A stretch of DNA of 62,364 nucleotides, filler included, from Globobulimina sp. (Eukaryota), in NCBI GenBank assembly GCA_003354225.1. It is 26 parts of 26 records of this genome, joined end to end, with 100 filler letters (N's around TTAATTAATTAA, not from the genome) between each part and the next. Parts side by side here need not be neighbours in the genome. Positions count along the whole stretch, not along the records: positions 2,405 to 4,708 come from PIVH01007513.1; 25 more parts are not named here. One strand, 5' to 3'. Under the pieces are notes generated by a model. It did not search any database, was not told the origin of the DNA, and was given only the letters and a program-made list of their open reading frames with translations. Made by a program: the position numbers and the translations under genes. Each line of letters starts with the position of its first letter. Position 1 is the stretch's first letter. This document shows positions 2,405-62,364 of this stretch, one piece after another.

Positions 2405-2495
2405 ACAATACTTAGTTGGACATAGTCTAATCTACGTACTGGGAAAGGAGTCAAGTCGAAAAAGCTTCTTTACTTTTTAAAAACTGCAAACAAAA

Positions 2496-4467
2496 ATGTC
2501 ATCCCGGCCAAGTAGAAGAAGAATCAAAACAAAACGATCAGCCACACTCGATCCATCCACCCAAATCGACAATTATTACTCCCTTTCATTATCACCATCA
2601 CCCAATCCATACAAAAAAAAATCCAAACCCACTCGAAAAAACCGTCGCATCATAAAATCCAAATCGCCCTCACCTTTCCACCACAAAAAAGCCAAGAAAT
2701 CTCGTCACCGCTCGACCTCATATGCGCCATTCAAATCAGACTTGGATTTATCCAAATTTTCACTCAACTTAGACACCAACAGCAAAACCACAAAATGCAA
2801 AGCAAAACCAAGAAAATGCCGCAAATATACCTCCCAGACACCACTCAATGCTGCAAACAGAAAGAAAAAAGCGAAGAAATGGCGGTCCTGTATGACCCCC
2901 AAAATATCGCTATCGAGCTCCATCACCGAATCACTATTTTCCAGCGATGACGAATTGTACGACAACCGCTGCGGTATTGGCACCGTACAAAGCCATCGAA
3001 AGCAACCCCAAACCATGCAAACTCAGACACAAATCACGAAATTAAGCACTTCCAACACTGTCCAGAAAGCCAGCAAGCTCTTAAATTTAACGGATACGAA
3101 GCTTACCAACAAAATCAACACAAATTTCCAAGAATTCCGGCGTGCTTTGAACGAGCAACAATGCAAATTATTGGGCGATTTGGAGGCATTTTACAGTGAG
3201 AAAAAACAGCAACTTATCTCGATTGAAAAAATATTGTTTAGCAATGCGCAGAAATCGAAAAATAGGAAGCAAAGAGAGTTCACCTTTGACAGCAATGTGC
3301 AATTTGTCATCGACGAAGCGCAGATATTGTCGCAAATTCACAAATATGGCCACATTCAAACGGAAACAATAAGTACAAACACAAAAACAGCTACAAATAG
3401 AACCGAGTTGTATGCGTACGGCGACGTTAAGAGCGAAGACAGTGCGCTGTGTAGCAGCGATTCCGCAGAGACCGAGACTGAGACAATGGCCATGAAACAG
3501 AAGCTGATTTTGGGCGAGATCCAATGCAAAACTATGAACAAATTGGATGTGGTGATTGTAATGGAAAGAGAGGCTCAGAAAAAGGCCAAACGGGCAGCAG
3601 CATTGAGGCGTGGAGTGGATGAAGGAATGAGGTACATTGCGGAGAGAAGTAAGGTTATTAATGATAAGATTGCTGTGGCGATGCGGGAATTGGAGCAAGC
3701 GCGGGAAGCGGTGGCCGGCAATGACCCGAAAGATATTAATGAGATAAAATCGCTCAAATCTCCACCGAGTGTTATTGAAAATGTTATTACTGCGACTGTG
3801 ATGATTTTAGGTTTGTGTTTTTGTGTTGAAACGATATTTTGTATTTGGGTCGGTTGCTTGTGATGTTTTTCATTTTTGTTAGTGAAGTTTTTTTATGTGG
3901 ACATGTTTGAAGTAAAGCAAGCATGTCGACACTGACAGAACTAAAATGAAACAGTTTAGTTTCCAATAAATACACGTTTCAGGCCATAGGATTAAAGAAT
4001 GGAGGGATGTACAAAAGTTATTGAGCTATAAATTCAAGCCTGAGTTGTTGAACTTTGATACGTATTCATTGTCGCCGATAATCAGACAGGAAGTGTATGA
4101 CAAATATGTCGGGAATGCAGATTTTAATTATGATCGAGTGTACGAAGGGAGCAAAGTGTGTGGAAATTTGGTGTTGTGGGTGATTTCGCAGATTAATTAT
4201 TCGCGATTGTTGGATGTTATTATCCCGTTACAAAAAGAAGTTAGGAAATTAAAAAAAGAAAGCATGGAAAAGGGGAAGTTGGCTGCGGAATTGATGCAAA
4301 ATGTGAAGGAGTTGGAAGATAATATTAAATTATATACAGATCAATGTAATCAAATGATTGATCATATTATAAAATCCACAGATTATGAATTGAAACAATT
4401 TAGTGATAAATTACAACCATTAAATGAAAAATTTAATCAATTATTAAGTAAGAATGTGCTCGATTGA
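2496..4467 (+). CDS. About 599-aa protein: basic low-complexity N-terminus, coiled coil and dynein heavy-chain stalk/microtubule-binding domain, no AAA+ motor; intron 3811-3982
   Basis: Spliced sequence EQAREAVAG..DINEIKSLKSPPSVIENVITATVMILGHRIKEWRDVQKLL..FKPELLNFD...FNYDRVYEGSKVCGNLVLWVISQINYSRLLDVIIPLQKEV follows the dynein CC1-MTBD-CC2 pattern. Own ATG, stop and T-rich 3' flank are all inside the contig. Confidence 0.85.
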
Positions 4468-4808
4468 GTTATATGTTTTTTTCATTAAATATTTTTTTTT
4501 CCGAAGAATCCTTTCGTATTTATTTTTTTTTTCGTTTTATTTTTTTGTATCGGAAATGTCAATTTATTTTTTTCTTGTTTTTCTTGTGTTTTTATGGATA
4601 TAATTTGCTTGTGTTTATTTTTTTATATGTTATTTTTATATTTGTTTTAAACTTCCTTAATTAATCAACATGCGCCTATTTCATTTAATTGTTATCACCA
4701 TCTCCTTGNNNNNNNNNNNNNNNNNNNNNNNNNNNNNNNNNNNNNNNNNNNNTTAATTAATTAANNNNNNNNNNNNNNNNNNNNNNNNNNNNNNNNNNNN
4801 NNNNNNNN

Positions 4809-9616: not shown

Positions 9617-11859
9617 TCCATATCCAAACAACGAAATAATTTCATTGCATTGAACATGGCATTGTAAACACTTTTATTTCTATCTTTAATTTCAATTTTA
9701 TTAATTATATTTTTCATTTTCGTTAAATCGCCACATTTTGCATATTGTCTCATTAATCCACATAACAACTTAATATTTCCTGCGTATTTACTCTGTTTTA
9801 TATCATTCTCGATTTTAATTAGTTTATTCAAATTATTGTAACACGAACGCATTGCCAACAAATACGTAATCAAATTCAAGTCGACATCATTATTATTTTT
9901 CATCTCATCATATAAAGTTAATGCATCCTCACAATTATCTGTCTGAGTAAATCCACTCAATTTGGAATTATAAATACTTGTTTTATTATTATTATTATTA
10001 TTATTCTCCACCATATTAAATATATTTTGTGCACATTCAATATCTCCACATTTTATGTATTGTATAAGTAAAGCACTTAAGATCTTGATATTAATTATTT
10101 CATCCTCTCTTTGTAGATCTTGCTCAACCATTTGTAACTGATTTATATTTGTGGAACAAGACGCAATCGCAACTAAATAGAATGATTCATTCCTTTTAAT
10201 TGTGCCGTTTTGTTTGAGTTCATTGTAAATTATCATTGCTTCTTTAAAATATTGATGTTCTTTGTATGATTGCATCATTGTTGTAAAAGTAATGATATCT
10301 CTCCTATGAATTGCTATATTTTTATAAATAAAATAGGACCGTTCAAGATCACCAAATTTTGAATATAAATAAATTAAACAATTTTGAATTTTTAAATCAT
10401 TATTCAATTTACATTCAATTATATCATTGTGAATCTTTATTAAATCGAAAATATTCGTACATATTTTTAACACAACTAAGTAAGAAATATCATTCTGTTT
10501 CATTCCCAATTCTTTCATCTCGAGATATAATTTCATTGCTTTGCCAAACTCGTCATTTTCAGCCAAAATATTGATTATTGTTGAATAAGTATTCAAATTA
10601 CGATATGTTACCTCAATTTTATCGAATATTGTCATGGCACAATTAATATCATTACATTTACCATATTGCGTAATCAATGCATTTAAAAGTTTAATCTCCG
10701 ACTTATATTTACTTTGTTTAATGTCATTATAAATTATATCTAAAACATCTCCATTGATATCACATGATTTAATTGCATATAAATAGATAATATCATCAAT
10801 TACAATGTTTATTTCCTTCATTTCATTATAAATATTTAATATATCCATAAACTGTTCATATTGAAACAGGCATTGTATTATGGATTTAAATATCCAGTTA
10901 TCGAAAACAGATGTTTTATATCTATGGAAAAGTAATTTGGCACTCTCAATCTTTTTACATTTTGTATATTGAAGCATCAGTCCATTGACAATCTTTATAT
11001 TCTCACCATATCCATCACTTATTATTTCTTGATGGAGTTGTATTAAATCACTCAAATTATTCTCATTTATGCCTTTAATTATAAATAAATACGTGATATG
11101 GTCCATTTTTATGTTCTTTTCTTTCATTTCTTGATACAAATTCATTATTTCATTATAATTATTGAGTGAGTTATATGCCCCAAACATTGCATTATATGAA
11201 TGAGTCTGTTTTATTCTTATCGCATCAAATACGTTTTGTGCAGAGTTTAAATCTCCGAATTTAGCATATCCTGTAATTAATGTGTTATATATTCGTTGGT
11301 TTCCAATATTATATTGTATTAAATGCAAATGAATATATTTGATTGCTTCCAAACATTGCGATTTCTTAAAATTGCGGTTTGTTTCGAATTTGTTTAATTT
11401 GGATAACACTAAATTGTATACATAATCATTGAGTATTATTGTTTTTTTTGTGTTTAGGTTATATTCATTATCTAACCAATATAATACATTCATTACTTGT
11501 TGGAATTGTTCATTATTTGCATAATGTCGTACAAGCGATGATAAACATTGTGCATCGATTTTTGTGTGGCTTTGTCTGTGATAAAATTGAATGTCTTTCC
11601 AAATCGAATCGCTATAAATTTCTGACAATTTATGATAATTACATAAATTCAGTATGGCTGTCCAAATATTTTTTTTATTGTTTTCTAATTTATAATCCAC
11701 ATTTTTAAGAATATCATTGATGAATTGCGTTGCACTCGTTTCATTCGTACCGTTTCTATTTTTCGTATCGGACATTCGAAGTAATTGCTTTATTGATGAG
11801 AAATGGAAACGTAAAAGCAGACAATATCGAGAAATAAAAAGTCTTTTTGTTGACATCAT
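9617..11859 (-). CDS. PLS-like pentatricopeptide repeat protein with putative mitochondrial presequence, C-terminus truncated
   Basis: Five complete triplets of about 100 aa plus the start of a sixth (NTLITGYAKFGD / SYNAMFGAY..LYQEMK / ITYLFIIK..IQLHQEII). The N-terminus is R/S/L/F-rich and lacks acidic residues. Confidence 0.9.
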
Positions 11860-12020
11860 CCTTACTTGCTTAAGATTTAAGATTTAAGAAAAAACTATAG
11901 TAGTTTGCATGATGAGCTCNNNNNNNNNNNNNNNNNNNNNNNNNNNNNNNNNNNNNNNNNNNNTTAATTAATTAANNNNNNNNNNNNNNNNNNNNNNNNN
12001 NNNNNNNNNNNNNNNNNNNG

Positions 12021-16825: not shown

Positions 16826-18067
16826 AGCCCAATATAACCAATTTGCATTCGCCATGAACCAAATTAAAATACAAACAAACAATCGAAACCAACAATATTT
16901 AAACTTTTTCATTTTGAAACCAAACAAAACCGTTTTCCATCCAATATATCTGTTTGGTGACAAGAACGGTAAAACCAATGGCAACAAACAAATATACCAT
17001 GTAAAATATTGTGACGTGCAAACTTTGTTAAATGTAACAAATATAAATGTCGTCATAAACATTGCCAAATGCAGGTTTTTATAAGTAATAAATGATATAA
17101 TTATAATATATCCAAATTGTGGAATGAATGAACAGCGGGACATTAACGGAGCAAAACAGTATCCAATAAAATGATTTATATCAATAATATGAATGCAATG
17201 CTTTAGGATATCTGTCATAGAGTGATATGAATTTAATTTTGACAATGTAAAAAAATAAAAATACGGGCTGAAATTGTGCTGATTGTCAATTCGTGTAAAA
17301 TGATATAAATATGATTCTTTTATATAAACATCACCGCCCATAAATATGTAACAGATTGTATTTAATGACATGAATGAAAATAAGCTCATCAAACCAAATG
17401 ACCACACATTTATGTTACATATCATATTTGATAGAATCGCAAAAAAGTTAATATTCAATGCTGGAATACGTTTCTTTTCACCTTTTTGTTGAATAATTGA
17501 CAAATGCGTTATAAATAAAACAAATGATAATGCATAAATGAATGGATATATTCTAAAATGGACAGCTGCTCCATACGCAATGCCAGCAACATAATAATTT
17601 TCATTTAATATCAAATAAAATGTGGATAACACTAATAAAATTATAATAGAATCGCAACTTCCTCGCGATGATACTGTGAATACAATGGGATTAAATAACC
17701 ATATTATTGATACCCAAAGGATGGAATTTATTTTATTTCTCCGATGAATTTTAATTAAATGATTTTTTATGATGTGATGTAACAAATATGCGCCAATAAT
17801 ATCGACTGTAATGAATAATAATTTACCAAATTGTGGCAGAAGCCAAATATTTGGCTGCAATATCCAAGCTAACAACGGTGTATATCTATATGTGTCACAG
17901 TCAAACGCAGTCCCTCCATTATAAATATGACGCGATGCATTTGTAAATACTTCATAGTCAATGTCTTGATATTTCACACCTTGCGGAGAAAAAAAGTCTC
18001 CCCAAAATACAAGATATAATCTTAACAAATACGCACTGACAAATATTTCGGTCTCAAACGAAGACAT
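16826..18067 (-). CDS. PIGM: GPI alpha-1,4-mannosyltransferase I catalytic subunit, 3' truncated
   Basis: VKYQDIDYEVFT, TYRYTPLLAW, WLFNP..SSRGSCD, VHFRIYP, YLYHFTRIDNQHNFSPYFY, FVTFNKVCTSQYFTWY. Confidence 0.96.
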
Positions 18068-18106
18068 TACATCAAGTGTTTTTACCTAAAAACAGCGTGT
18101 TTAAAC
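18068..18106. promoter_or_regulatory. 39-bp interval between divergent ATGs, containing the inverted repeat TGTTTTTA-CC-TAAAAACA
   Basis: Perfect 8-bp inverted repeat at 18077-18094. A regulatory role is inferred from position only. Confidence 0.5.
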
Positions 18107-33644: not shown

Positions 33645-35946
33645 CGTCAAACTCAAACTGCCAAGTCACGCTATGATCCAAATCGATATTCAAAGAATCC
33701 TCATATAAAATCAACAATAAATAGCATTACTAATAGAAATACCAGTTCGTCCCTTTCAAATACAAACAGTAACAATAACAAATATTCAGTTGATATAAAT
33801 CGTTTACTTCATGGACAAAACAATAAATCATCGACCTCATCAACCACAAGCGAGCCGTCACCAAATCCAATTCCTTCAACACAGTCCACAGCATTCCCCA
33901 CTCGCCACATCACCACCAGATACACCAAAAAACAAAACAACAATAAAAATAATATCCGCCCGCCCACATCATCCATGTCCACATCAACCTCAATACCGTT
34001 AGCAAAGCGTATGCATAGCACACTAGACTCAAACAACAATGGCAACAATAATAATAACAACGACTACAAATCCAATGATCAAATACTAGACACATTTAAA
34101 AATATAAACTTATCCAATAAGTTCCAGTTATCCTCCAATAATAACTTAGTAGCCACAAAGCCTATAAACACAATAAATCGCATAACCGACACGCAATATA
34201 ACTTATCATTGATACGGCCAACGGACTGTGTCGTATTATATTGCCCTGTCGCTCATTGTTACGGTATGTTTCTACTTTATTTATATTTATTTATTCCGAT
34301 AGCAAACCACTTGTACATAAGTTTGCTATTTTTTTCCGATAACAAATTGTGAAAAACAGTTTGTGAGTTTCTTTAAACATTAATGTTTTCCACGTCATGT
34401 CATGTCATGTCTCGGCTTACACACTCACAATGCTTGAACCTGCGATATATACATAGTGTGTTTGAGTGACTTCGAAGAGGACAGTGGCATAAAAGAAAAA
34501 GAAGAGAAAAGCACAGAGTTATATTTAAAATGCGATGACATGGAAGGCGTTGGTTTGTTAATTGGCGAGACCTCCTTTACCGGCACTTGCAAATTTTTAA
34601 CAGATTGCAAAATCCAATTAATCACTGGCCAGGGCGGCTTATACAAGGACAGAAATCGTATAATAATCGACAGTAAACATGCTACGAAATTCATGTTACA
34701 GAAACATTCAAACCTAAATGACACCGGTTGTATGATGATTGGCCACAATGTATTGATATTTGTAGAAGCTTCGCGATCGAATAAAAAACAGTTTTGGTCC
34801 TATGATGCTGAGACAGAGACTATTATTTTGAAGGAATTATCACAGGCAAAGCCGACCCAAAATGAAATCTTTGTACTTCAAAAATACGGACAGCCGTTGC
34901 AACAATATGAGGCTCAGAAACCACAAGAGATGCAACATCTAAATATTGAGTTGTATAAATTGTCCACAAATATCCAGGAATTTTATTTATGCCATGACAT
35001 ACTGCGGGTTTTGTCCCGTCATAATTTCGATGGCGATTTTCTCAAATTTTCCTATGACGCAGTGTACGGATTTCCTAAAATAATATTTAATGCCAAGAAA
35101 TATGGAATTAAACCTCTTTTGGCGTCATCTGTCAATGCATTAACTCCATTGATTGAACATACAGCAAAAGTGCGGTATTTCACGTCGATTCATTCACGGA
35201 CGGAATATGGAATGGTTTCGCAAGCGTTTTGCTGCGAAATTGATAAACATTTGTGCGATTTTAATATATTGATTGTTCAGTTGGAGACGCGGCTAAATCG
35301 AAATGAATTAACTTTGCAGAACATGCGGTTTTATTTACAGCGCGCATCGAGAAGTATGAGTGCTTTGCATGCTATTTGCTATAAAATCCATTTGAATCAA
35401 TTTGATATTAATAAGAGCAGGAATGCGCATAAAAATACGTACTTAGGATCGCGTGGCGGTGCCTTGTTGAATATGATTAAGCACCACATTGATACGTCCG
35501 GTGAGAAGCATGTGGTTATTTTGTATAATAAGTTGCAGGAAGCAGCGCAAAAACCGTATTTTGAAATGCTGTCCAATTGGATTTACAGAGGCATTATCAC
35601 TGATATTTATGGCGAATTTATGATCAAAGAAAAGAAACATTTGAAGAAAGAGGATCTTGGCCAAGAATACAACAATGAATATTGGACCAGCAGATATTCA
35701 TTAAATGTGACTCAGATATTTCGAGGTTTGGTTAATTTGCTAATTTGCTTCTGTACATATTAAATGTGTTAATATTTGTAGGTGTGTCAGAGTATAAAGA
35801 TAAGATTGTGACAACTGGGAAATATCTGAATGTTATGAGAGAGAGTGGCTATCGGTACGATATTAATGAGCGGGATAAAGAGAATGGATATGAATTAATA
35901 AGGGAAGAGAGAGAATTATGTGAAATAATTGGAGCAAATAGTGATT
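33645..35946 (+). CDS. TUBGCP2: Gamma-tubulin complex component 2 (Spc97/GCP2), partial; introns 34264-34456 and 35726-35781
   Basis: EYGMVSQAFC, LTLQNMRFYLQ, RGGALLN, PYFEMLSNWIYRGIITDIYGEFMI, EYNNEYWTSRY, DKIVTTGKYLNVMRE. Confidence 0.88.
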
Positions 35947-57662: not shown

Positions 57663-59653
57663 TAAACAATTGAGATATAGATACGTCTAATCGCAGATTG
57701 TGAGGCAAAGTTACGGAGCGTACGACGAACACAACCCATAGTACGACGGCCCTTTTTCACAACTTCATTCGTGTGTAGTGAATAAGATAAAGAGGGCTCT
57801 AACAAAAGACCAAGATATTTGTAACTGGACACACGTTCAATATTAATACCATTTATCTGAGGAGGATTAGTCAAATGGATAGGCTGAGGTGAGATACTGA
57901 ACAACATGTATTTGGTTTTTTTAGTGTTTAAAGAGAGTGAAAGAGAAGAAAATGAATTGTAAATAAGTTCAGTGTCTCGCCTTATGCATTCCTCAGAATT
58001 AGGAGATACAAGTGGATGCACATAGCACAAATCGTCTGCATACATTATAAGACTGCTATCTGGTGACAATTCCAGTTTACACACTGCATTTACATAAGCA
58101 ATGAACAAGAGAGGTCCAAGAATACTTCCTTGGACCACACCGGACAGGACATCACGAGGAGTAGACAGGGAAGCACCAACCCGGACTACATGTGTGCGTG
58201 CAGACAAGTACGATTTAATAACACATAACAGATACTCAGGAACACCGTATACTGTCTCCAAAACTGTCAACAGCCGGGCGTGAATAACAGAGTCAAATGC
58301 CTTAGAGATATCGTAAAATAAGGCACATACTCCAGTACTCAAACGCGACTGTACACATTTCTGAAAACCATTTAGTACATATGTATCAAAACACATTAGT
58401 GCATCAACAGTCGATCTAGCATGACGAAACCCAAACTGCTGGTCACTCAATTTCTGATAAATATAGGTTTCCAGCAATTTTCTAATATGGCGTTCAGCTG
58501 GCTTTGAATCAATGTCCAGCAAACTAACAGGCCTGTAATCCAATGGGTCAGCAGAGTTGAGTACTTTGGGCACAGGTGAGATAATAGCTTGTTTCCAGAC
58601 AGAGGGGAAAATACCCTCAGCCAACATCCGGTTTATAAGGACAGCTAAGGATGGAGCAATGTCAACTGCCCCTTCTTTCATCATTTTTGCATATATTCCA
58701 TTTATGCCAGGTGATTTGTTTATGCTCATTTGACAAATATCCAATAGCACAAAATCTTCTGAACATATCCAGTCCGGCTCCAATTGACCTGGTGCCGTTG
58801 CTGGAGGTGGTAGACCAGGGGAACGATTCCAAGCTCGATCATAGCAATCAGCCAATAGTTCCGCCTTAGCCTGTGGTTCAGTACAGAGGCCATTTGGTGA
58901 AAGCAATGAAGGGAGAGGTGGACGCGGACCTTTTAGGAAATATCGAATGTTAGCATAAAGGTCCTGTAATGAATTGACTTGTGAAAACTTTTCCTCCATG
59001 TAATGTTTCCTAGCTTCCCAAATAGCTTTGGTGACTCTTTTTTTCAGATGTTTGTGACGGGTTTGAAATTTGAGTTCTTTGGTTTTGTGCCATTTCCTAT
59101 AGGCCGAGTTCCGACGTTTTATCAAATTTAATAGTGGCTTTGTCATCCATGATTTCTGCACACGAAATTGAACTGTTTTTCTAGGAATAGCCGAACTCGC
59201 GGCTTCAAGTATAGCCTTCTGCCACAGAGCAGCTGCTGACTCGACTGTGTCTGCTAACAACACCAAATCTGTCAATTTAGCACTCGATAGTAGGGAGCGA
59301 AATAGGTTCCAATTAGCCCTTGAAAAACACCAAATATTTTTTGATTTTGGGGTCGGTACTTCTATCTTGAATGGAATGTCAATCCAAAGTAAGCAATGGT
59401 AATTTTCAACTGGAGCTCCTAAGCCCCAGCTGACATCAGACATATCTTTGTGGACATAAATATGGTCGATTCCTGATTGTGAACGAGGGGTAATATGGGT
59501 AGGGACATTGACCAACTGACAGAAATCTTGATTCTCACTGAATTGCTTAATTAACGTGTTTTCCTGAGGCTTAAGCACATCAATATTAAAGTCCCCAAGA
59601 ACTACAACAGTTGCGGATGTTAATATGGGTGATGTTCTGAGATAGAACATCAC
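57663..59653 (-). mobile_element. Non-LTR retrotransposon (LINE, CR1/L2-like) ORF2: end of the APE endonuclease plus reverse transcriptase
   Basis: VVLGDFNID, PTH..SGIDH, KSPGINGI, WKQAIISPVPK, DYRPVSLL, QQFGFR..RST, DISKAFDSV.H, SGVVQGSILGPLLF, YADD, YKYLG. Intronless and GC-richer than its flank. Confidence 0.96.
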
Positions 59654-60063
59654 CCATATTTGTCAGAAAATCTTCTATAAACTTGACTTTGATAAATATT
59701 ACTGTGATAACATTGTGTATTGTATTTTTGTATTTTTGTATTTGTGTACTAATGTATTCATGTATTTGTGCCTTGTAGCTTATCTTATAAGTCTGTGCAC
59801 TTCATTAATAAATTGTTCTTGCCATATATATAGTATCATAACAAAAACATCATCATATGATCATGCTTGACGCGGCAGCGTCAACCCCTTTAATATTTCC
59901 AGGAGGGTTAATGCACAATTACAAAATTGTCTACCCTATAACTTTTTTTCTATTGTACCAATTNNNNNNNNNNNNNNNNNNNNNNNNNNNNNNNNNNNNN
60001 NNNNNNNTTAATTAATTAANNNNNNNNNNNNNNNNNNNNNNNNNNNNNNNNNNNNNNNNNNNN

Positions 60064-62274
60064 GACTCCTTTACTCCTTTATCTTTGCTCCTCCATTTTG
60101 CTATTTTATTCCTAAACGTTTCCGCTGATTTCGTAGTTACTTTCTGTTTCACAGATTCATTGATCGCCACAGTATCTGTCACTAACAATGTATCATTGCT
60201 TAAACTCGCCTTATCCGTCAATTGTGTGCTAGTTTGATTATAAAACGAAATATGATTTAATTTCAATTGTTGCGGCACATCATCTTTATATAAAGTTGGA
60301 TCAATTGCTTTTAATAAATCCATCAAAACACTTCTCCGAACTTCCCCAACTAAGACTGCCTCAGATATGGTGTGTACGATTGGAAACCACTCCTGATCAA
60401 AATCTTTGGTTAAAACACGAATTAAATCCTTTGGTTGCGGATCAATGGTAACAAAGGAAAATTCCTTATACATGACATCATCGGCTATCAATAACCTATA
60501 CATTGCTTCTGTTTTGTTCTCAAATAAAGCATTATTATTCAGTGTATTCACCAACATACGATTATTATTTTTCGATCTTCCCGTTTCTGGATCAAATATT
60601 TCTGGTTTATTATCAACACCAATTCTGCCAACGTCTATGCTGTAATCCACACCTGATTCTGTAACGGATTTATTTCTATCTTTTTTTTTGATGGACAATA
60701 TATCTGATAACGGTGAGCGAGTTTTTTTCGCCTTTATAAATACTCGCTTATAGGCAACAGTGGGTCGGATGGGTAGCATCGGGATACCGCGTAATTGCAA
60801 TACACTGTCATAAAATGAATGTGTCAGTGAGGTCGAGACACCACCACTAACAATGACAGCTAATAAGCATGGAATCGCTAAGGATAAATCTTGCGTAATC
60901 TCTAATGCAATGACCGCAGGGGATATGGTCTGAGTCACAGCGCCCGCCAATGCTGCAGCACCCACCACACTATAAAGCCGTGGGTCGCAGTAAGCAAACC
61001 AGCCTCGGAACAATTCTCCGAAAATTCTGCCAAATACTGAACCCAAAGTGAATACCGGTGAGAATATACCGCACGGAAAGGATAATGTTACCGTACAAAT
61101 AGTAAAGAAAAAGTTTAAAATATAAAATGAAACTAAATTGCCATACAATCCACTGTTTATAATCCAGTCATGATAATAACAATGACACCAATCATTTTGT
61201 TGACAAATAATAGCATCATCATTGACATCACATAGCGTCGGATTCGCAGCTAAGTATTCTGCGACACAATCACAGTCATAACATTGTACATTTTCATGCT
61301 CGAATACTTTGTCATCGCAATTACTTAAATATTCAATATTAAACATATCAGATACTGCTTTCCGCGCCGGTTCAATCGCAAAATCACCAATGAAAAACAA
61401 TATGGTGGTAAAGAAAATGACCACAAACGCAGCAATACCATACGGATTAGCCCCAAAAAATTGGGACTGATATTTCCTTCGCAGATCCACGTAAAAGTCA
61501 TGAAAATAAATGAAAAATGTTCCACAAAGCCCAGTAAGTAAACCCAGCAAAGCAAAGTAGCCAAACTCGCGGGGTAATGGTTTAACCGCATCACTGAATG
61601 AGGTTTGGTACAATAACAATGAGGTTGGCGATAAGGATTGGAATATGTGCGTCATTGTGCTGCCAACCATAGCACAACAGAACGCAGTCCAGTAATTTGT
61701 GACGGGATAATATGTGGATGTTACCTCAATGCTAAACAAAACGCCACCAATCGGTGCACCAAATACCGAGGCAAGTCCGCCTGCACATGCTGCCGATAAC
61801 ATTTGTTTACGATCCAAATGCGCAAACACTTTTAATTTGGTCAACTGCCGACCCATTATGGCGGACAAATGAATAAAGGGTCCTTCTAAGCCGATGGGGA
61901 CACCAGAGGATAAGCTCAGAGTCAATGCAACTGTTTTGATCAAGAATGTGGTTTTACTGAGATAATATCTGATCCATATGCCAGATAATATAGCTCTCAA
62001 TTCTGGAACACCACTACCGGCACAGCCAGGGGCAAAGCTCCTGGTTAGACAGATAGCGCCTAAAACCAATATTAATTTCAGTAGCAACAGTAACAAATAT
62101 GCAGGTACGCCGTACGCAATTTGAAAAGCAGAATATTCATAAATGAAGCTCTCCAATAACCATGCTTGACTCGCTGCTTTTGAGATGCAAAACGTCAACA
62201 TTCCATTAAATATTGCCAGTATTATCAATGCAAAGTAGGCTCTCTTCCATATTGTATTAAAGTCCTCCAATAAT
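60064..62274 (-). CDS. CLC-family chloride channel (ClC-1/2-like) with the start of the CBS region, partial
   Basis: GSGVPE, GLEGP, FGAPIGGVLFSIEVTS, PCGIFSP, SFYDS and a CBS-like FPIV...LVGEV.R. Confidence 0.95.
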
Positions 62275-62364
62275 CTGTGTATTTATAACATATATATTTA
62301 TGTTTGGGCACATATTATAGAAAGAATATACCTTTTTTTTGGTGCAGTTTTAACAAATGAAAGA

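What the first reader, a model, noticed from the sequence alone, without database searches (positions are those of the whole stretch)
2496..4467. Stand-alone dynein stalk/MTBD protein without a motor
Seen: a complete gene of about 599 aa, with start, one intron and stop inside the contig. Its C-terminal third is a dynein CC1-MTBD-CC2 module, preceded by a K/R/S-rich disordered region and a coiled coil, with no AAA+ domains. Known: the MTBD normally sits in a heavy chain of over 4000 aa, and stalk registry sets its microtubule affinity. Inference: a dynein-derived non-motor microtubule-associated protein (cross-linker, or competitor for dynein sites).
Basis: partly seen in the sequence, partly recalled or inferred. 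Interest (0 to 1): 0.7.

Follow-up and report, generated by a model that had tools for sequence, protein, structure and literature searches.

The report
Motor-less dynein stalk protein gene
A small two-exon gene, probably from a foraminiferan, encodes only the microtubule-gripping stalk of the dynein motor, joined to a pairing rod and a basic tail; it belongs to a conserved motor-less family that looks built to hold or tie microtubules rather than walk on them.

Summary
Window 2496-4467 (+) is a complete two-exon gene of 599 aa. The intron is 3811-3982, GT..AG, phase 1. The gene lies in a 2.3-kb assembly piece (2405-4708).

- **Domains.** Residues ~331-593 are a full dynein CC1-MTBD-CC2 stalk. 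Exon 2 matches cytoplasmic dynein-1 stalks at E 9e-18. A model of the closest orthologue matches the solved 'entire dynein stalk' (5ayh) at TM 0.89. No AAA+ or other dynein domain is present.
- **Splicing.** The intron is skipped in contigs of two other public runs.
- **Selection.** 30 of 38 listed differences to 90-95% alike copies fall on third codon positions.
- **Family.** Proteins of 550-692 aa with the same ends and layout occur in Ammonia and Nonionella. More distant motor-less forms occur in Bolivina, Elphidium and Globobulimina. All carry PF12777 only.
- **Origin.** The motor-less stalks form one group on three trees (SH-aLRT 99) and are most like dynein-1.
- **Pairing.** The middle helix of the orthologue is predicted to pair antiparallel (ipSAE 0.66 against 0.00 for controls).

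Best reading: a static, probably dimeric microtubule binder or cross-linker with a phospho-regulated basic tail. Microtubule binding itself is inferred, not shown. I found no description of such a family in eight literature searches. Verdict: a new variant of a known kind, interest 0.65.

The parts
2405..4708 (.). the assembly piece (2304 nt) that holds the gene, bounded by artificial spacers
   Evidence: N runs at 2361-2404 and 4709-4752 with TTAATTAATTAA between the N blocks
2496..4467 (+). complete gene, 599 codons plus stop
   Evidence: It is collinear with 575-692 aa homologues.
2496..3810 (+). exon 1 (codons 1-438 plus the first base of codon 439)
   Evidence: Translation P0001. The donor G|GT lies at 3810/3811.
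3811..3982 (+). intron, 172 nt, GT..AG, phase 1, inside MTBD helix H1/H2 region
   Evidence: A joint skipping 172 nt with GT..AG appears in one contig each of X6 (42 letters on the shorter side) and X3 (24 letters). X1 covers the intron. P0004 and P0007 carry an insert or read-through at the same site.
3983..4467 (+). exon 2, ends with TGA 4465-4467
   Evidence: Translation P0002. PDB match to the dynein-1 MTBD+CC2 at E 8.8e-18.
2496..3050 (+). basic, S/T/P-rich, predicted disordered N-terminal region (residues 1-185) with N-terminal RR..K.KR..TLDPS motif and four positionally conserved S/T-P sites (residues 33/35, 57/59, 115, 134)
   Evidence: Composition. Orthologue residues 1-209 have pLDDT <50. 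Motifs are conserved in alignment A1, and the sites are listed.
3051..3251 (+). long middle helix (residues 186-252), predicted antiparallel homodimer rod
   Evidence: Orthologue helix 217-283 has pLDDT 82-96. Complex prediction was run on orthologue residues 205-330 as two copies.
3276..3362 (+). conserved 'F-x-F-D-x-N ... G-h-h' segment (residues 261-289) that joins the predicted dimer interface
   Evidence: Conserved across sub-families. Orthologue interface residues 292-320.
3363..3485 (+). variable, partly acidic linker (residues ~290-330), predicted disordered
   Evidence: Orthologue residues 316-354 have pLDDT <50. Length varies in alignment A1.
3486..3716 (+). stalk coiled-coil strand CC1 (residues 331-407)
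   Evidence: Orthologue helix 361-437. CC1 alignment to dynein chains. Mapping.
3684..3686 (+). codon CGG = Arg397 at the place of the CC1 proline
   Evidence: The proline is present in 124 of 125 stalk rows, while the window has Arg.
3726..4149 (+). microtubule-binding domain proper (residues 411-494), interrupted by the intron
   Evidence: Orthologue helices 441-524. Foldseek hits 3err and 6rzb. PDB alignments.
4153..4446 (+). stalk coiled-coil strand CC2 (residues 496-593), running to within 6 residues of the C-terminus
   Evidence: Orthologue helix 526-623. Mapping.
4468..4672 (+). probable 3' untranslated region
   Evidence: Contigs of X3, X6 and X7 follow the window up to 4668-4672. X3 then runs into A's and an adapter. 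This is a weak hint only.

Best explanation
**Shown.**
- This is a real, spliced gene under purifying selection. It belongs to a conserved family of about 550-690 aa whose named members all come from Foraminifera.
- The protein keeps the whole dynein stalk: CC1, the six-helix microtubule-binding domain and CC2. It ends where the stalk would re-enter the AAA ring.
- It has no AAA+ ring, linker or tail.

**Inferred mechanism.**
- The stalk tip binds the dynein site on the tubulin dimer. No ATPase is present to shift the coiled-coil registry, so affinity is fixed by the stalk itself. The protein is therefore a static binder.
- The 67-residue middle helix and the conserved segment after it pair two chains antiparallel.
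- Each dimer would then carry two stalk-MTBD arms on flexible linkers and two strongly basic tails (net +36 over 200 residues). The tails could hold the acidic tubulin tails.
- Such a molecule would bundle or cross-link microtubules, or brake their sliding.
- The four conserved Ser/Thr-Pro sites in the basic tail are the likely switch, with phosphorylation weakening binding.
- In function it would work like PRC1/Ase1/MAP65-type cross-linkers, but built from a dynein part.
For: **Gene is real.**
- An intron joint with GT..AG appears in contigs of X6 and X3, while X1 covers the intron.
- 30 of the 38 coding differences listed against the 90-95% alike copies in X6/X7 lie on codon position 3. This is my count from table 3; 73 further rows were not shown.
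- The alignment to P0003 runs end to end at E 8e-178.

**Family.**
- 7 of 7 hits and 8 of 8 hits (which searched 281-2000 aa only) carry PF12777 alone.
- In the scan of 1.84 billion representatives, the best 25 of the 150 listed rows are 169-676 aa.
- Source names are Ammonia, Nonionella, Bolivina, Globobulimina and Elphidium.

**Stalk.**
- PDB sequence match at E 8.8e-18.
- The family profile scores dynein-1 at 154-180 bits, dynein-2 at 120 and axonemal chains at <=82.
- The AF2 model of P0003 has pLDDT around 90 over 361-623.
- Foldseek gives 5ayh 'entire dynein stalk' at TMt 0.89, rmsd 2.1 over 249 columns, and 3wuq at 0.87.
- Of 54 stalk columns that are >=80% conserved in 103 heavy-chain-like rows, 36 keep the same majority residue in the motor-less group and 30 keep it in the window protein.

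**Pairing.**
- Complex prediction used ESMFold2 on P0003 residues 205-330 as two copies. The alignment was not used.
- Score 0.66, best of 3 controls 0.00.
- Calibration on microbes: the mark was reached by 21 of 30 proteins solved as pairs of one chain and by 0 of 23 solved as single chains.
- Calibration on eukaryotes: 17 of 29 pairs reached it, but only 1 of the 7 with no older solved relative, and 0 of 30 single chains.
- The runs agree in >=87% of contacts, and partner pLDDT is >=77.
- The best pairs are 246:246, 249:242, 256:238, 264:227 and 271:223. The residue sum is constant, which means an antiparallel arrangement.
- The tool's verdict is that this supports binding but does not show it.

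**Basic tail.** Composition is.
Against: - No experiment or direct computation shows microtubule binding.
- Isolated native dynein stalks are, from my recall of the literature, weak binders unless the registry is locked.
- The window copy has Arg in place of the CC1 proline, which 124 of 125 other stalk rows keep. This copy may therefore be altered in stalk mechanics.
- 24 of the 54 strongly conserved heavy-chain columns differ in the window protein. Median identity to heavy-chain stalks is only 26%.
- The pairing test was run on the orthologue (51% identical overall), not on the window protein. Long amphipathic helices often pair in such models.
- Pfam MT is under its cut-off on the window's separate exon products.
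- The kind (RNA or DNA) of runs X3, X6 and X7 is not on record. A spliced DNA copy is therefore not formally excluded.
Confidence: 0.5

Rival explanations
1. Passive competitor or roadblock. The protein occupies the dynein/kinesin footprint on tubulin and so tunes or gates motor traffic. Pairing and the basic tail only raise avidity, and no cross-linking is involved.
For: The MTBD is of the cytoplasmic dynein-1 type, so it should compete for the same site. Forams have very fast bidirectional transport along microtubules (passages of PMC13371060 read).
Against: A competitor needs neither a full-length, roughly 15-nm stalk nor a conserved antiparallel pairing rod. Both are conserved in all three full-length sub-families.
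Confidence: 0.15
2. Microtubule-to-something-else tether. The stalk anchors on microtubules, while the basic N-terminal region binds another polyanion such as chromatin/DNA, RNA or acidic membranes. The N-terminal RR..K.KR cluster would act as a nuclear import signal, for example for a spindle role.
For: The N-terminal 200 residues have net +36, with a conserved basic cluster in the first 15 residues and conserved S/T-P sites. This fits cell-cycle-regulated nuclear or spindle proteins; that link rests on general knowledge and was not tested.
Against: No DNA-, RNA- or lipid-binding domain was found by Pfam. Basic disordered tails are equally typical of microtubule-lattice binders. Sub-family C replaces most of the basic region with a helical domain yet keeps the rod and stalk.
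Confidence: 0.2
3. Not a functional stand-alone gene: a decaying fragment of a heavy-chain gene, a mis-assembled chimera, or one exon block of a much larger gene.
For: The piece is only 2.3 kb, with 91 nt before the ATG. Pfam MT is below cut-off on the single exon products. The universal CC1 proline is lost.
Against: - The reading frame of 599 codons is open.
- 30 of 38 listed differences fall on third codon positions.
- The start and end motifs are the same in 575-692 aa homologues, including a transcriptome-derived one from Ammonia.
- An independent contig bridges 2931-3796.
- No hit of 281-2000 aa carries AAA domains.
Confidence: 0.03

Closest known systems
Stalk of cytoplasmic dynein-1 heavy chain (solved as an isolated piece: 5AYH, 3WUQ; MTBD on microtubules: 6RZB)
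   Same: The CC1-MTBD-CC2 hairpin has the same length and fold (TMt 0.89 and 0.87). The best sequence scores of all dynein classes go to dynein-1. The H1 'K-x-P-P', the CC2 proline and the H6 'SK.CG.L..WV..Q..YS' signature are kept.
   Different: - In nature the stalk is known to me only as an insert between AAA4 and AAA5 of a chain of more than 4000 aa. Here it is the C-terminal 45% of a 599-aa protein with no ring.
- Identity to heavy-chain stalks is about 26%.
- The stalk base is far more conserved within the family than among heavy chains.
- The window copy lacks the CC1 proline.
Orphan or non-motile dynein heavy chains (DNHD1, DNAHX)
   Same: They are dynein derivatives that have given up motility (passages of PMC11785096 read).
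   Different: Those proteins keep the AAA ring and tail. According to that preprint, DNAHX has a disrupted stalk-MTBD. Here the opposite part survives: the ring is gone and the stalk-MTBD is conserved.
Non-catalytic motor-homology domains of the kinesin-14 partners Vik1/Cik1
   Same: The concept is the same: the microtubule-binding part of a motor is reused without ATPase activity (PMC4338441, search listing and start of abstract only; the rest is recalled).
   Different: The fold, motor superfamily and context all differ. Vik1/Cik1 work as partners of an active motor, and no such partner is known here.
PRC1/Ase1/MAP65 microtubule cross-linkers
   Same: The proposed working principle is shared: a homodimer through a coiled coil, one folded microtubule-binding domain per chain, and a basic disordered region with proline-directed phosphosites. 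The features of PRC1 are recalled and come from no call.
   Different: There is no sequence or fold relationship. PRC1's binding domain is a spectrin-like bundle, and the domain order is reversed. This is not a family member.
Free-standing MTBD genes noted earlier in this scan (Naegleria gruberi; notes e1-636821, e1-644575)
   Same: Motor-less use of the dynein MTBD in a protist (AI notes seen, not checked by me).
   Different: Those genes are described as the tip only, without a stalk. The present family keeps the entire stalk and adds a pairing rod and a basic tail. Its named members are all Foraminifera.

Membership tests
Dynein heavy chain (motor) family | Ring of six AAA+ modules (Pfam AAA_6, AAA_5, AAA_7, AAA_8, AAA_9 and others) | tested here: not met
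   No AAA family appears in P0001 or P0002 at E<=1. None appears in 8 homologues at E<=0.01. The same scan finds them all in a true heavy chain, P0109.
Dynein heavy chain (motor) family | N-terminal tail and linker (DHC_N1, DHC_N2) | tested here: not met
   There are no hits. The N-terminal 200 residues are basic and predicted disordered.
Dynein heavy chain (motor) family | Antiparallel coiled-coil stalk with MTBD at its tip | tested here: met
Pfam PF12777 'MT' (microtubule-binding stalk of dynein motor) | Score at or above the gathering cut-off (24 bits) | tested here: inconclusive
   The window's exon products taken singly give 20.7 bits and no hit. Orthologues P0003 and P0008 give 51 and 47.4 bits. 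Phmmer of exon 2 against dynein-1 stalks gives E 8.8e-18.
Pfam PF12777 'MT' (microtubule-binding stalk of dynein motor) | Fold: two long antiparallel helices flanking a six-helix bundle | tested here: met
   Tested on the orthologue P0003 (73% identical to the window protein over the 241 stalk columns). pLDDT is around 90. Foldseek gives 5ayh at TMt 0.89.
Pfam PF12777 'MT' (microtubule-binding stalk of dynein motor) | Conserved prolines in CC1 and at the start of CC2 | tested here: not met
   The CC2 proline is present (I-I-P-L). The CC1 proline is replaced by Arg397 in the window copy, although 124 of 125 stalk rows have Pro. The other family members keep it.
Pfam PF12777 'MT' (microtubule-binding stalk of dynein motor) | Binds microtubules | not testable with these tools
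   Only conservation could be measured: 30 of 54 highly conserved heavy-chain columns are kept in the window protein.
PRC1/Ase1/MAP65 cross-linkers (considered for 'works like') | Spectrin-fold microtubule-binding domain; family Pfam signature | tested here: not met
   There is no such Pfam hit. The binding domain here has the dynein MTBD fold.
TRIM-type antiparallel coiled-coil proteins (considered for the middle rod) | RING and/or B-box zinc fingers before the coiled coil | tested here: not met
   There is no zinc-finger family in Pfam scans. The only hint was an Atlas feature hit to a B-box cluster at 0.79, below the level of a lead. Antiparallel pairing itself is predicted.

The most novel reading that the evidence does not exclude
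Foraminifera have turned the dynein-1 stalk-MTBD into a portable microtubule-targeting module, and built a lineage-specific set of non-motor microtubule proteins from it.

At least four layouts were seen:
- basic tail + antiparallel rod + stalk (this gene);
- helical N-domain + rod + stalk;
- repeats of short-stalk MTBDs;
- a 1965-aa protein with the stalk near its N-terminus.

In the family of this gene the highly conserved stalk base would act as a natural 'registry lock' that sets a fixed microtubule affinity. The antiparallel dimer would then be a bipolar cross-linker of the sliding microtubule bundles of reticulopodia, possibly co-evolved with the divergent foraminiferal tubulins.
Probability: 0.35. 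Interest if true: 0.8.

Novelty: new variant of a known kind. Interest (0 to 1): 0.65.

Why it matters
In every dynein described, the stalk is a communication device. The AAA ring slides CC1 against CC2 to switch the MTBD between strong and weak binding.

A conserved natural protein that keeps the full stalk and drops the ring is a natural experiment on that coupling. It asks what registry and affinity a free stalk adopts, and which residues at the stalk base fix it. Engineered fusions such as seryl-tRNA-synthetase-MTBD were made to answer exactly this.

It would also add a new class of microtubule-associated protein, with a motor part reused as a static binder. The lineage is one whose microtubule behaviour is extreme and whose MAPs are essentially unknown: fast bidirectional transport, sliding bundles and divergent tubulins. 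PMC5455982 (passages read) states that MAPs, dynein and kinesin of Rhizaria remained to be analysed.

Independent motor-less stalk proteins point to repeated domestication of this module. These are the Gefionella protein, whose modules group with dynein-2, and the Naegleria notes of this scan.

Tried and rejected
- **Own genome.** The genome search 'own' holds no genome for this window. Paralogues and the organism's true heavy chains could not be looked up.
- **Earlier notes.** The search of earlier findings by place and by sequence returned nothing.
- **Pfam on exon 2 alone.** There was no MT hit, only sub-threshold coiled-coil families. I treated this as an effect of the split domain.
- **ESM Atlas on the middle region** (P0001 residues 195-325). 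The best scores were 0.90 or less. They went to unnamed clusters, ARA70/SPATS2-like clusters and a B-box cluster at 0.79. I did not use them.
- **Sequencing runs.**
  - No RNA holder is listed; the kinds of X3, X6 and X7 are not on record or are guesses.
  - The laid contigs of X3, X6 and X7 gave no cover in 2405-2481.
  - The same holds for the break of X1's contigs at 3568.
- **First tree.** It placed the motor-less group beside a true heavy chain, P0109 (97). I had also labelled P0033 a 'foram heavy chain'. Both readings were wrong or unstable. P0033 has no AAA domain. In the wider tree P0109 moved into a fungal-like dynein-1 cluster.
- **Origin class on trees.** It is only weakly resolved. 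With a site-heterogeneous model the motor-less group is sister to the 22 dynein-1-like rows at SH-aLRT 84. That was the quick tree, because the careful search did not finish in 300 s.
- **Identity of P0109's organism.** The last homology search gave no names for it.
- **Glöckner et al. 2014** (the Reticulomyxa genome paper) is not held. It may mention such genes; I could not see it. Supplements of all papers were closed.
- **Sub-family C.** Its N-terminal domain looks SAM-like to my eye, but Pfam finds nothing at E<=1. I did not run a fold search on it.
- **Antisense ORF 3168-3806** (212 codons, stop to stop). It lies wholly inside exon 1, and I took it for chance.
Full report
**1. What the window is.** The 62,364-base window is not one stretch of chromosome. 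It holds 50 runs of 44 N in pairs around TTAATTAATTAA. That makes 25 artificial spacers joining 26 assembly pieces of 2304 to 2301 nt, sorted by length. The finding lies in the piece 2405-4708. Neighbours in the window are therefore not genomic neighbours, and no synteny can be read. No whole genome is held for the window.

**2. The gene model.**
- An ATG at 2496 follows an in-frame stop by 15 nt.
- The frame runs to a G|GT donor at 3810/3811. An AG at 3981-3982 opens exon 2, which ends at TGA 4465-4467.
- Joined by coordinates in a script, the CDS is 1800 nt, giving 599 codons and one terminal stop.

The intron is supported in three ways.
- A contig of run X6 skips exactly 172 nt with GT..AG ends, with 42 letters on its shorter side. 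A contig of X3 does the same with 24 letters.
- Two X7 records leave the window at 3811 and read on with 15 letters that match the start of exon 2 at 14 places (my comparison). Run X1 has a contig across 3770-4040 that contains the intron.
- Homologue P0004 carries a 19-residue insert, and homologue P0007 reads through into unrelated residues, at the same point after 'VMILG'. Six others run straight through it.

The kind of these runs is not on record. 'Spliced RNA' is therefore my reading of their behaviour, not a label.

**3. No chimera, no further exons.**
One X6 contig covers 2931-3796, and X7 contigs overlap over 3255-3671.
- The spliced protein aligns from residue 8 to 597 with residues 11-627 of the 628-aa homologue P0003 (51% identity, E 8e-178). 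It aligns from 2 to 599 with the 692-aa Ammonia transcriptome protein P0008.
- Family members share the N-terminal 'RR.K.KR..TLDPS' motif a few residues after their first Met. They also share the C-terminal '...LQPLNEKF..LL...VLD' end.
- Contigs of X3, X6 and X7 leave the window sequence at 4668-4672. X3 runs into A's and an Illumina adapter, which is compatible with a poly(A) site about 200 nt after the stop (weak).

**4. Selection.** Runs X6 and X7 hold copies 90-95% alike. Of the 38 coding differences listed in table 3, 30 lie on the third codon position (my count). A further 73 rows were not shown. This bias also holds in the 'disordered' N-terminal part, so the whole frame is under purifying selection.

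**5. What the protein is made of.** An AlphaFold2 model of P0003 was built on a 26-row alignment (mean pLDDT 64.9). It gives these segments:

| Segment | P0003 residues | Confidence |
|---|---|---|
| N-terminal region | 1-209 | pLDDT <50, disordered |
| Long middle helix | 217-283 | pLDDT 82-96 |
| Short helix | 305-315 | low confidence |
| Linker | 316-354 | pLDDT <50, disordered |
| CC1 | 361-437 | about 90 |
| Bundle of short helices (MTBD) | 441-524 | about 90 |
| CC2 | 526-623 | about 90 |

Mapped to the window protein:

| Segment | Window residues |
|---|---|
| Basic region | 1-185 |
| Middle helix | 186-252 |
| Conserved segment | 261-289 |
| Linker | ~290-330 |
| CC1 | 331-407 |
| MTBD | 411-494 |
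| CC2 | 496-593 |

Residues 1-200 hold 47 K/R against 11 D/E, and 66 S/T/P. Four S/T-P sites keep their place in the family: residues 33/35, 57/59, 115 and 134.

**6. The dynein module.**
- *Sequence.* Exon 2 against PDB sequences gives cytoplasmic dynein-1 stalk constructs at E 8.8e-18. The best axonemal chain reaches 1.8e-7 and dynein-2 reaches 0.0035.
- *CC1.* The exon-1 part aligns only weakly, best to dynein-2 at E 7.6e-4.
- *Profile.* A family profile scores dynein-1 at 154-180 bits, dynein-2 at about 120 and axonemal chains at <=82.
- *Fold.* Foldseek matches the model to 5ayh, 'the entire dynein stalk region', at TMt 0.89 and rmsd 2.1 over 249 columns. It matches 3wuq at 0.87.
- *Pfam.* PF12777 is passed by the orthologues, with 51 and 47.4 bits against a cut-off of 24. 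It is not passed by the window's two exon products taken singly: 20.7 bits and no hit.
- *Absent domains.* No AAA+, linker or tail family is found in the window products or in eight homologues. The same scan finds them all in a true heavy chain.
- *Conservation.* Of 54 stalk columns that are >=80% conserved among 103 heavy-chain-like rows, 36 keep the same majority residue in the motor-less group and 30 keep it in the window protein. Median identity to those rows is 26%.
- *An oddity.* The CC1 proline is present in 124 of 125 rows, but the window copy has Arg397, codon CGG.

**7. The family.**
- The word-index searches gave 7 of 7 hits (240-767 aa searched) and 8 of 8 hits (281-2000 aa searched) with PF12777 as the only Pfam family.
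- A profile scan of 1.84 billion representatives gave 1644 hits at E<=1e-3 and 40 at E<=1e-30. The best 25 of the 150 listed rows are 169-676 aa long.
- Source names, where given, are all Foraminifera: Ammonia sp., Nonionella stella, Bolivina argentea, Globobulimina turgida and Elphidium margaritaceum. The rest are unnamed JGI, ENA or Logan records.

Three full-length sub-families share the middle rod, the conserved segment and the stalk, but differ before them.
- The window's type has the basic N-terminus.
- A Bolivina/Nonionella type (P0015, P0017) is 37-38% identical from window residue ~206 on.
- An Elphidium type (P0020, P0165, P0021) is 30-32% identical. Its first 80 residues are predicted as a five-helix domain.

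A foraminiferan is the natural guess.

**8. Origin.** On trees of 241 stalk columns the motor-less rows form one group, always with SH-aLRT 99:
- 21 rows on the first tree;
- 22 rows, including the window protein, on the second;
- 12 rows on the third.

Their place among dynein classes is unstable.
- The first tree was built only from top-scoring rows. It put the group beside a true heavy chain, P0109 (97).
- The second tree had dynein-2 and other distant rows added. It left the group at the three-way node between a 67-row dynein-1 cluster and 10 other rows.
- The third tree used a site-heterogeneous model. It made the group sister to the 22 dynein-1-like rows at 84. This was the quick search, because the careful one did not finish.

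Taken with the bit scores, descent from a dynein-1-type stalk is the best reading, but it is not proven. No named rhizarian heavy chain was in the trees.

**9. Pairing.** Complex prediction was run on residues 205-330 of P0003 as two copies.
- It scored 0.66 in all three runs (0.66, 0.67, 0.66), against 0.00 for the best of three controls.
- On microbes, the mark was reached by 21 of 30 proteins solved as pairs of one chain and by 0 of 23 solved as single chains.
- On eukaryotes, it was reached by 17 of 29 pairs, but by only 1 of the 7 without an older solved relative, and by 0 of 30 single chains.
- The runs agree in at least 87% of contacts, and partner pLDDT is at least 77.
- The closest pairs are 246:246, 249:242, 256:238, 264:227 and 271:223. 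The residue sum is constant, so the helices run antiparallel around residue 246, which corresponds to window residue 215.
- Residues 292-320 join the interface.
- The tool's own verdict is that this supports binding and does not show it.

**10. How it most likely works.**
- *Shown.* This is a conserved, spliced, motor-less protein with a complete dynein-type stalk.
- *Inferred.* The MTBD still binds the tubulin dimer. With no ring to shift the registry, affinity is fixed by the stalk. The stalk base is much more conserved within the family than among heavy chains. An antiparallel dimer would present two stalk arms and two basic tails, that is, a multivalent static binder able to bundle, cross-link or brake microtubules. 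Proline-directed phosphorylation of the tail is the likely control.
- *Odds.* I put this reading at about 0.5. Rivals are a pure competitor for motor sites (0.15), a tether between microtubules and another polyanion or a nuclear/spindle role (0.2), and a non-functional fragment (0.03).

**11. Comparison with what is known.**
- The closest relative is the stalk of cytoplasmic dynein-1. The protein fails the defining features of a heavy chain: it has no ring, linker or tail.
- Orphan and non-motile heavy chains (DNHD1, DNAHX; passages of PMC11785096) are the mirror image. They keep the ring, and DNAHX has a spoilt stalk.
- Vik1/Cik1 and PRC1/MAP65 are functional analogies only.
- Two AI notes of this scan describe free-standing MTBD genes without a stalk in Naegleria (not checked by me).

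**12. Literature.** Eight full-text searches found no description of a motor-less stalk-MTBD protein family. I also read passages of PMC13371060 and PMC5455982. The Reticulomyxa genome paper is not held and supplements were closed, so a mention there cannot be excluded.

**13. Verdict.** This is a new variant of a known kind: a known module in a new, conserved, motor-less architecture. Interest is 0.65.

Noticed in passing
window 1-62364: The window is a chain of 26 assembly pieces of 2304-2301 nt, sorted by length and joined by N44+TTAATTAATTAA+N44 spacers. Any 'neighbourhood' reading across spacers would be an artefact.
   Followed up: yes
window 3684-3686: Arg397 (CGG) stands where 124 of 125 dynein-type stalk rows, including all other family members, have the CC1 proline. 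It is one base away from a Pro codon. It could be a real change in this copy or a sequence error. X1's contig over 3569-3726 agrees with the window, but X1 may be the assembly's own source.
   Followed up: partly
window 3817 and 4445 (loose ends): An X1 contig diverges 7 nt into the intron. X3 and X6 contigs diverge at 4445, 22 nt before the stop. X6 and X7 hold copies 90-95% alike. The organism or its close relatives therefore carry further copies or alleles of this gene.
   Followed up: no
protein P0033 (Nonionella stella, 1965 aa): This is another motor-less architecture. A dynein-type stalk-MTBD lies at residues ~174-417, followed by about 1550 residues with no AAA domain. The only other Pfam trace is a sub-threshold NZF zinc finger. 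It is the sister of all other motor-less rows on the trees.
   Followed up: partly
proteins P0026 (Bolivina argentea, 604 aa), P0027, P0031: These proteins have one or two MTBDs on very short stalk arms, interleaved with an unrelated repeated segment. It looks like a further foraminiferal use of the module.
   Followed up: no
protein P0038 (Gefionella okellyi, 869 aa): Two complete stalk-MTBD modules lie in tandem behind a proline-rich N-terminus, with no AAA domain (PF12777 at 92 bits in two stretches). Both modules group with a dynein-2 heavy chain (97). This would be an independent, dynein-2-derived motor-less protein in a malawimonad. It comes from a transcriptome, so completeness is unchecked.
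   Followed up: partly
proteins P0020, P0165, P0021 (sub-family C): The first 80 or so residues are predicted as a five-helix domain (pLDDT 56-81). It has no Pfam hit at E<=1. It looks SAM-like to my eye only, and no fold search was run.
   Followed up: partly
window 34438-35760 (+), 60064-62282 (-), 16826-18085 (-), 9617-11883 (-), 57663-59662 (-): Other pieces of the window carry ordinary eukaryotic genes: a gamma-tubulin complex component N-terminal domain, a CLC chloride channel, PIG-M mannosyltransferase, a PPR protein and a reverse transcriptase.
   Followed up: partly
window 3168-3806 (-): An antisense open frame of 212 codons (stop to stop) lies wholly inside exon 1. I took it for a chance frame opposite a coding region.
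   Followed up: no
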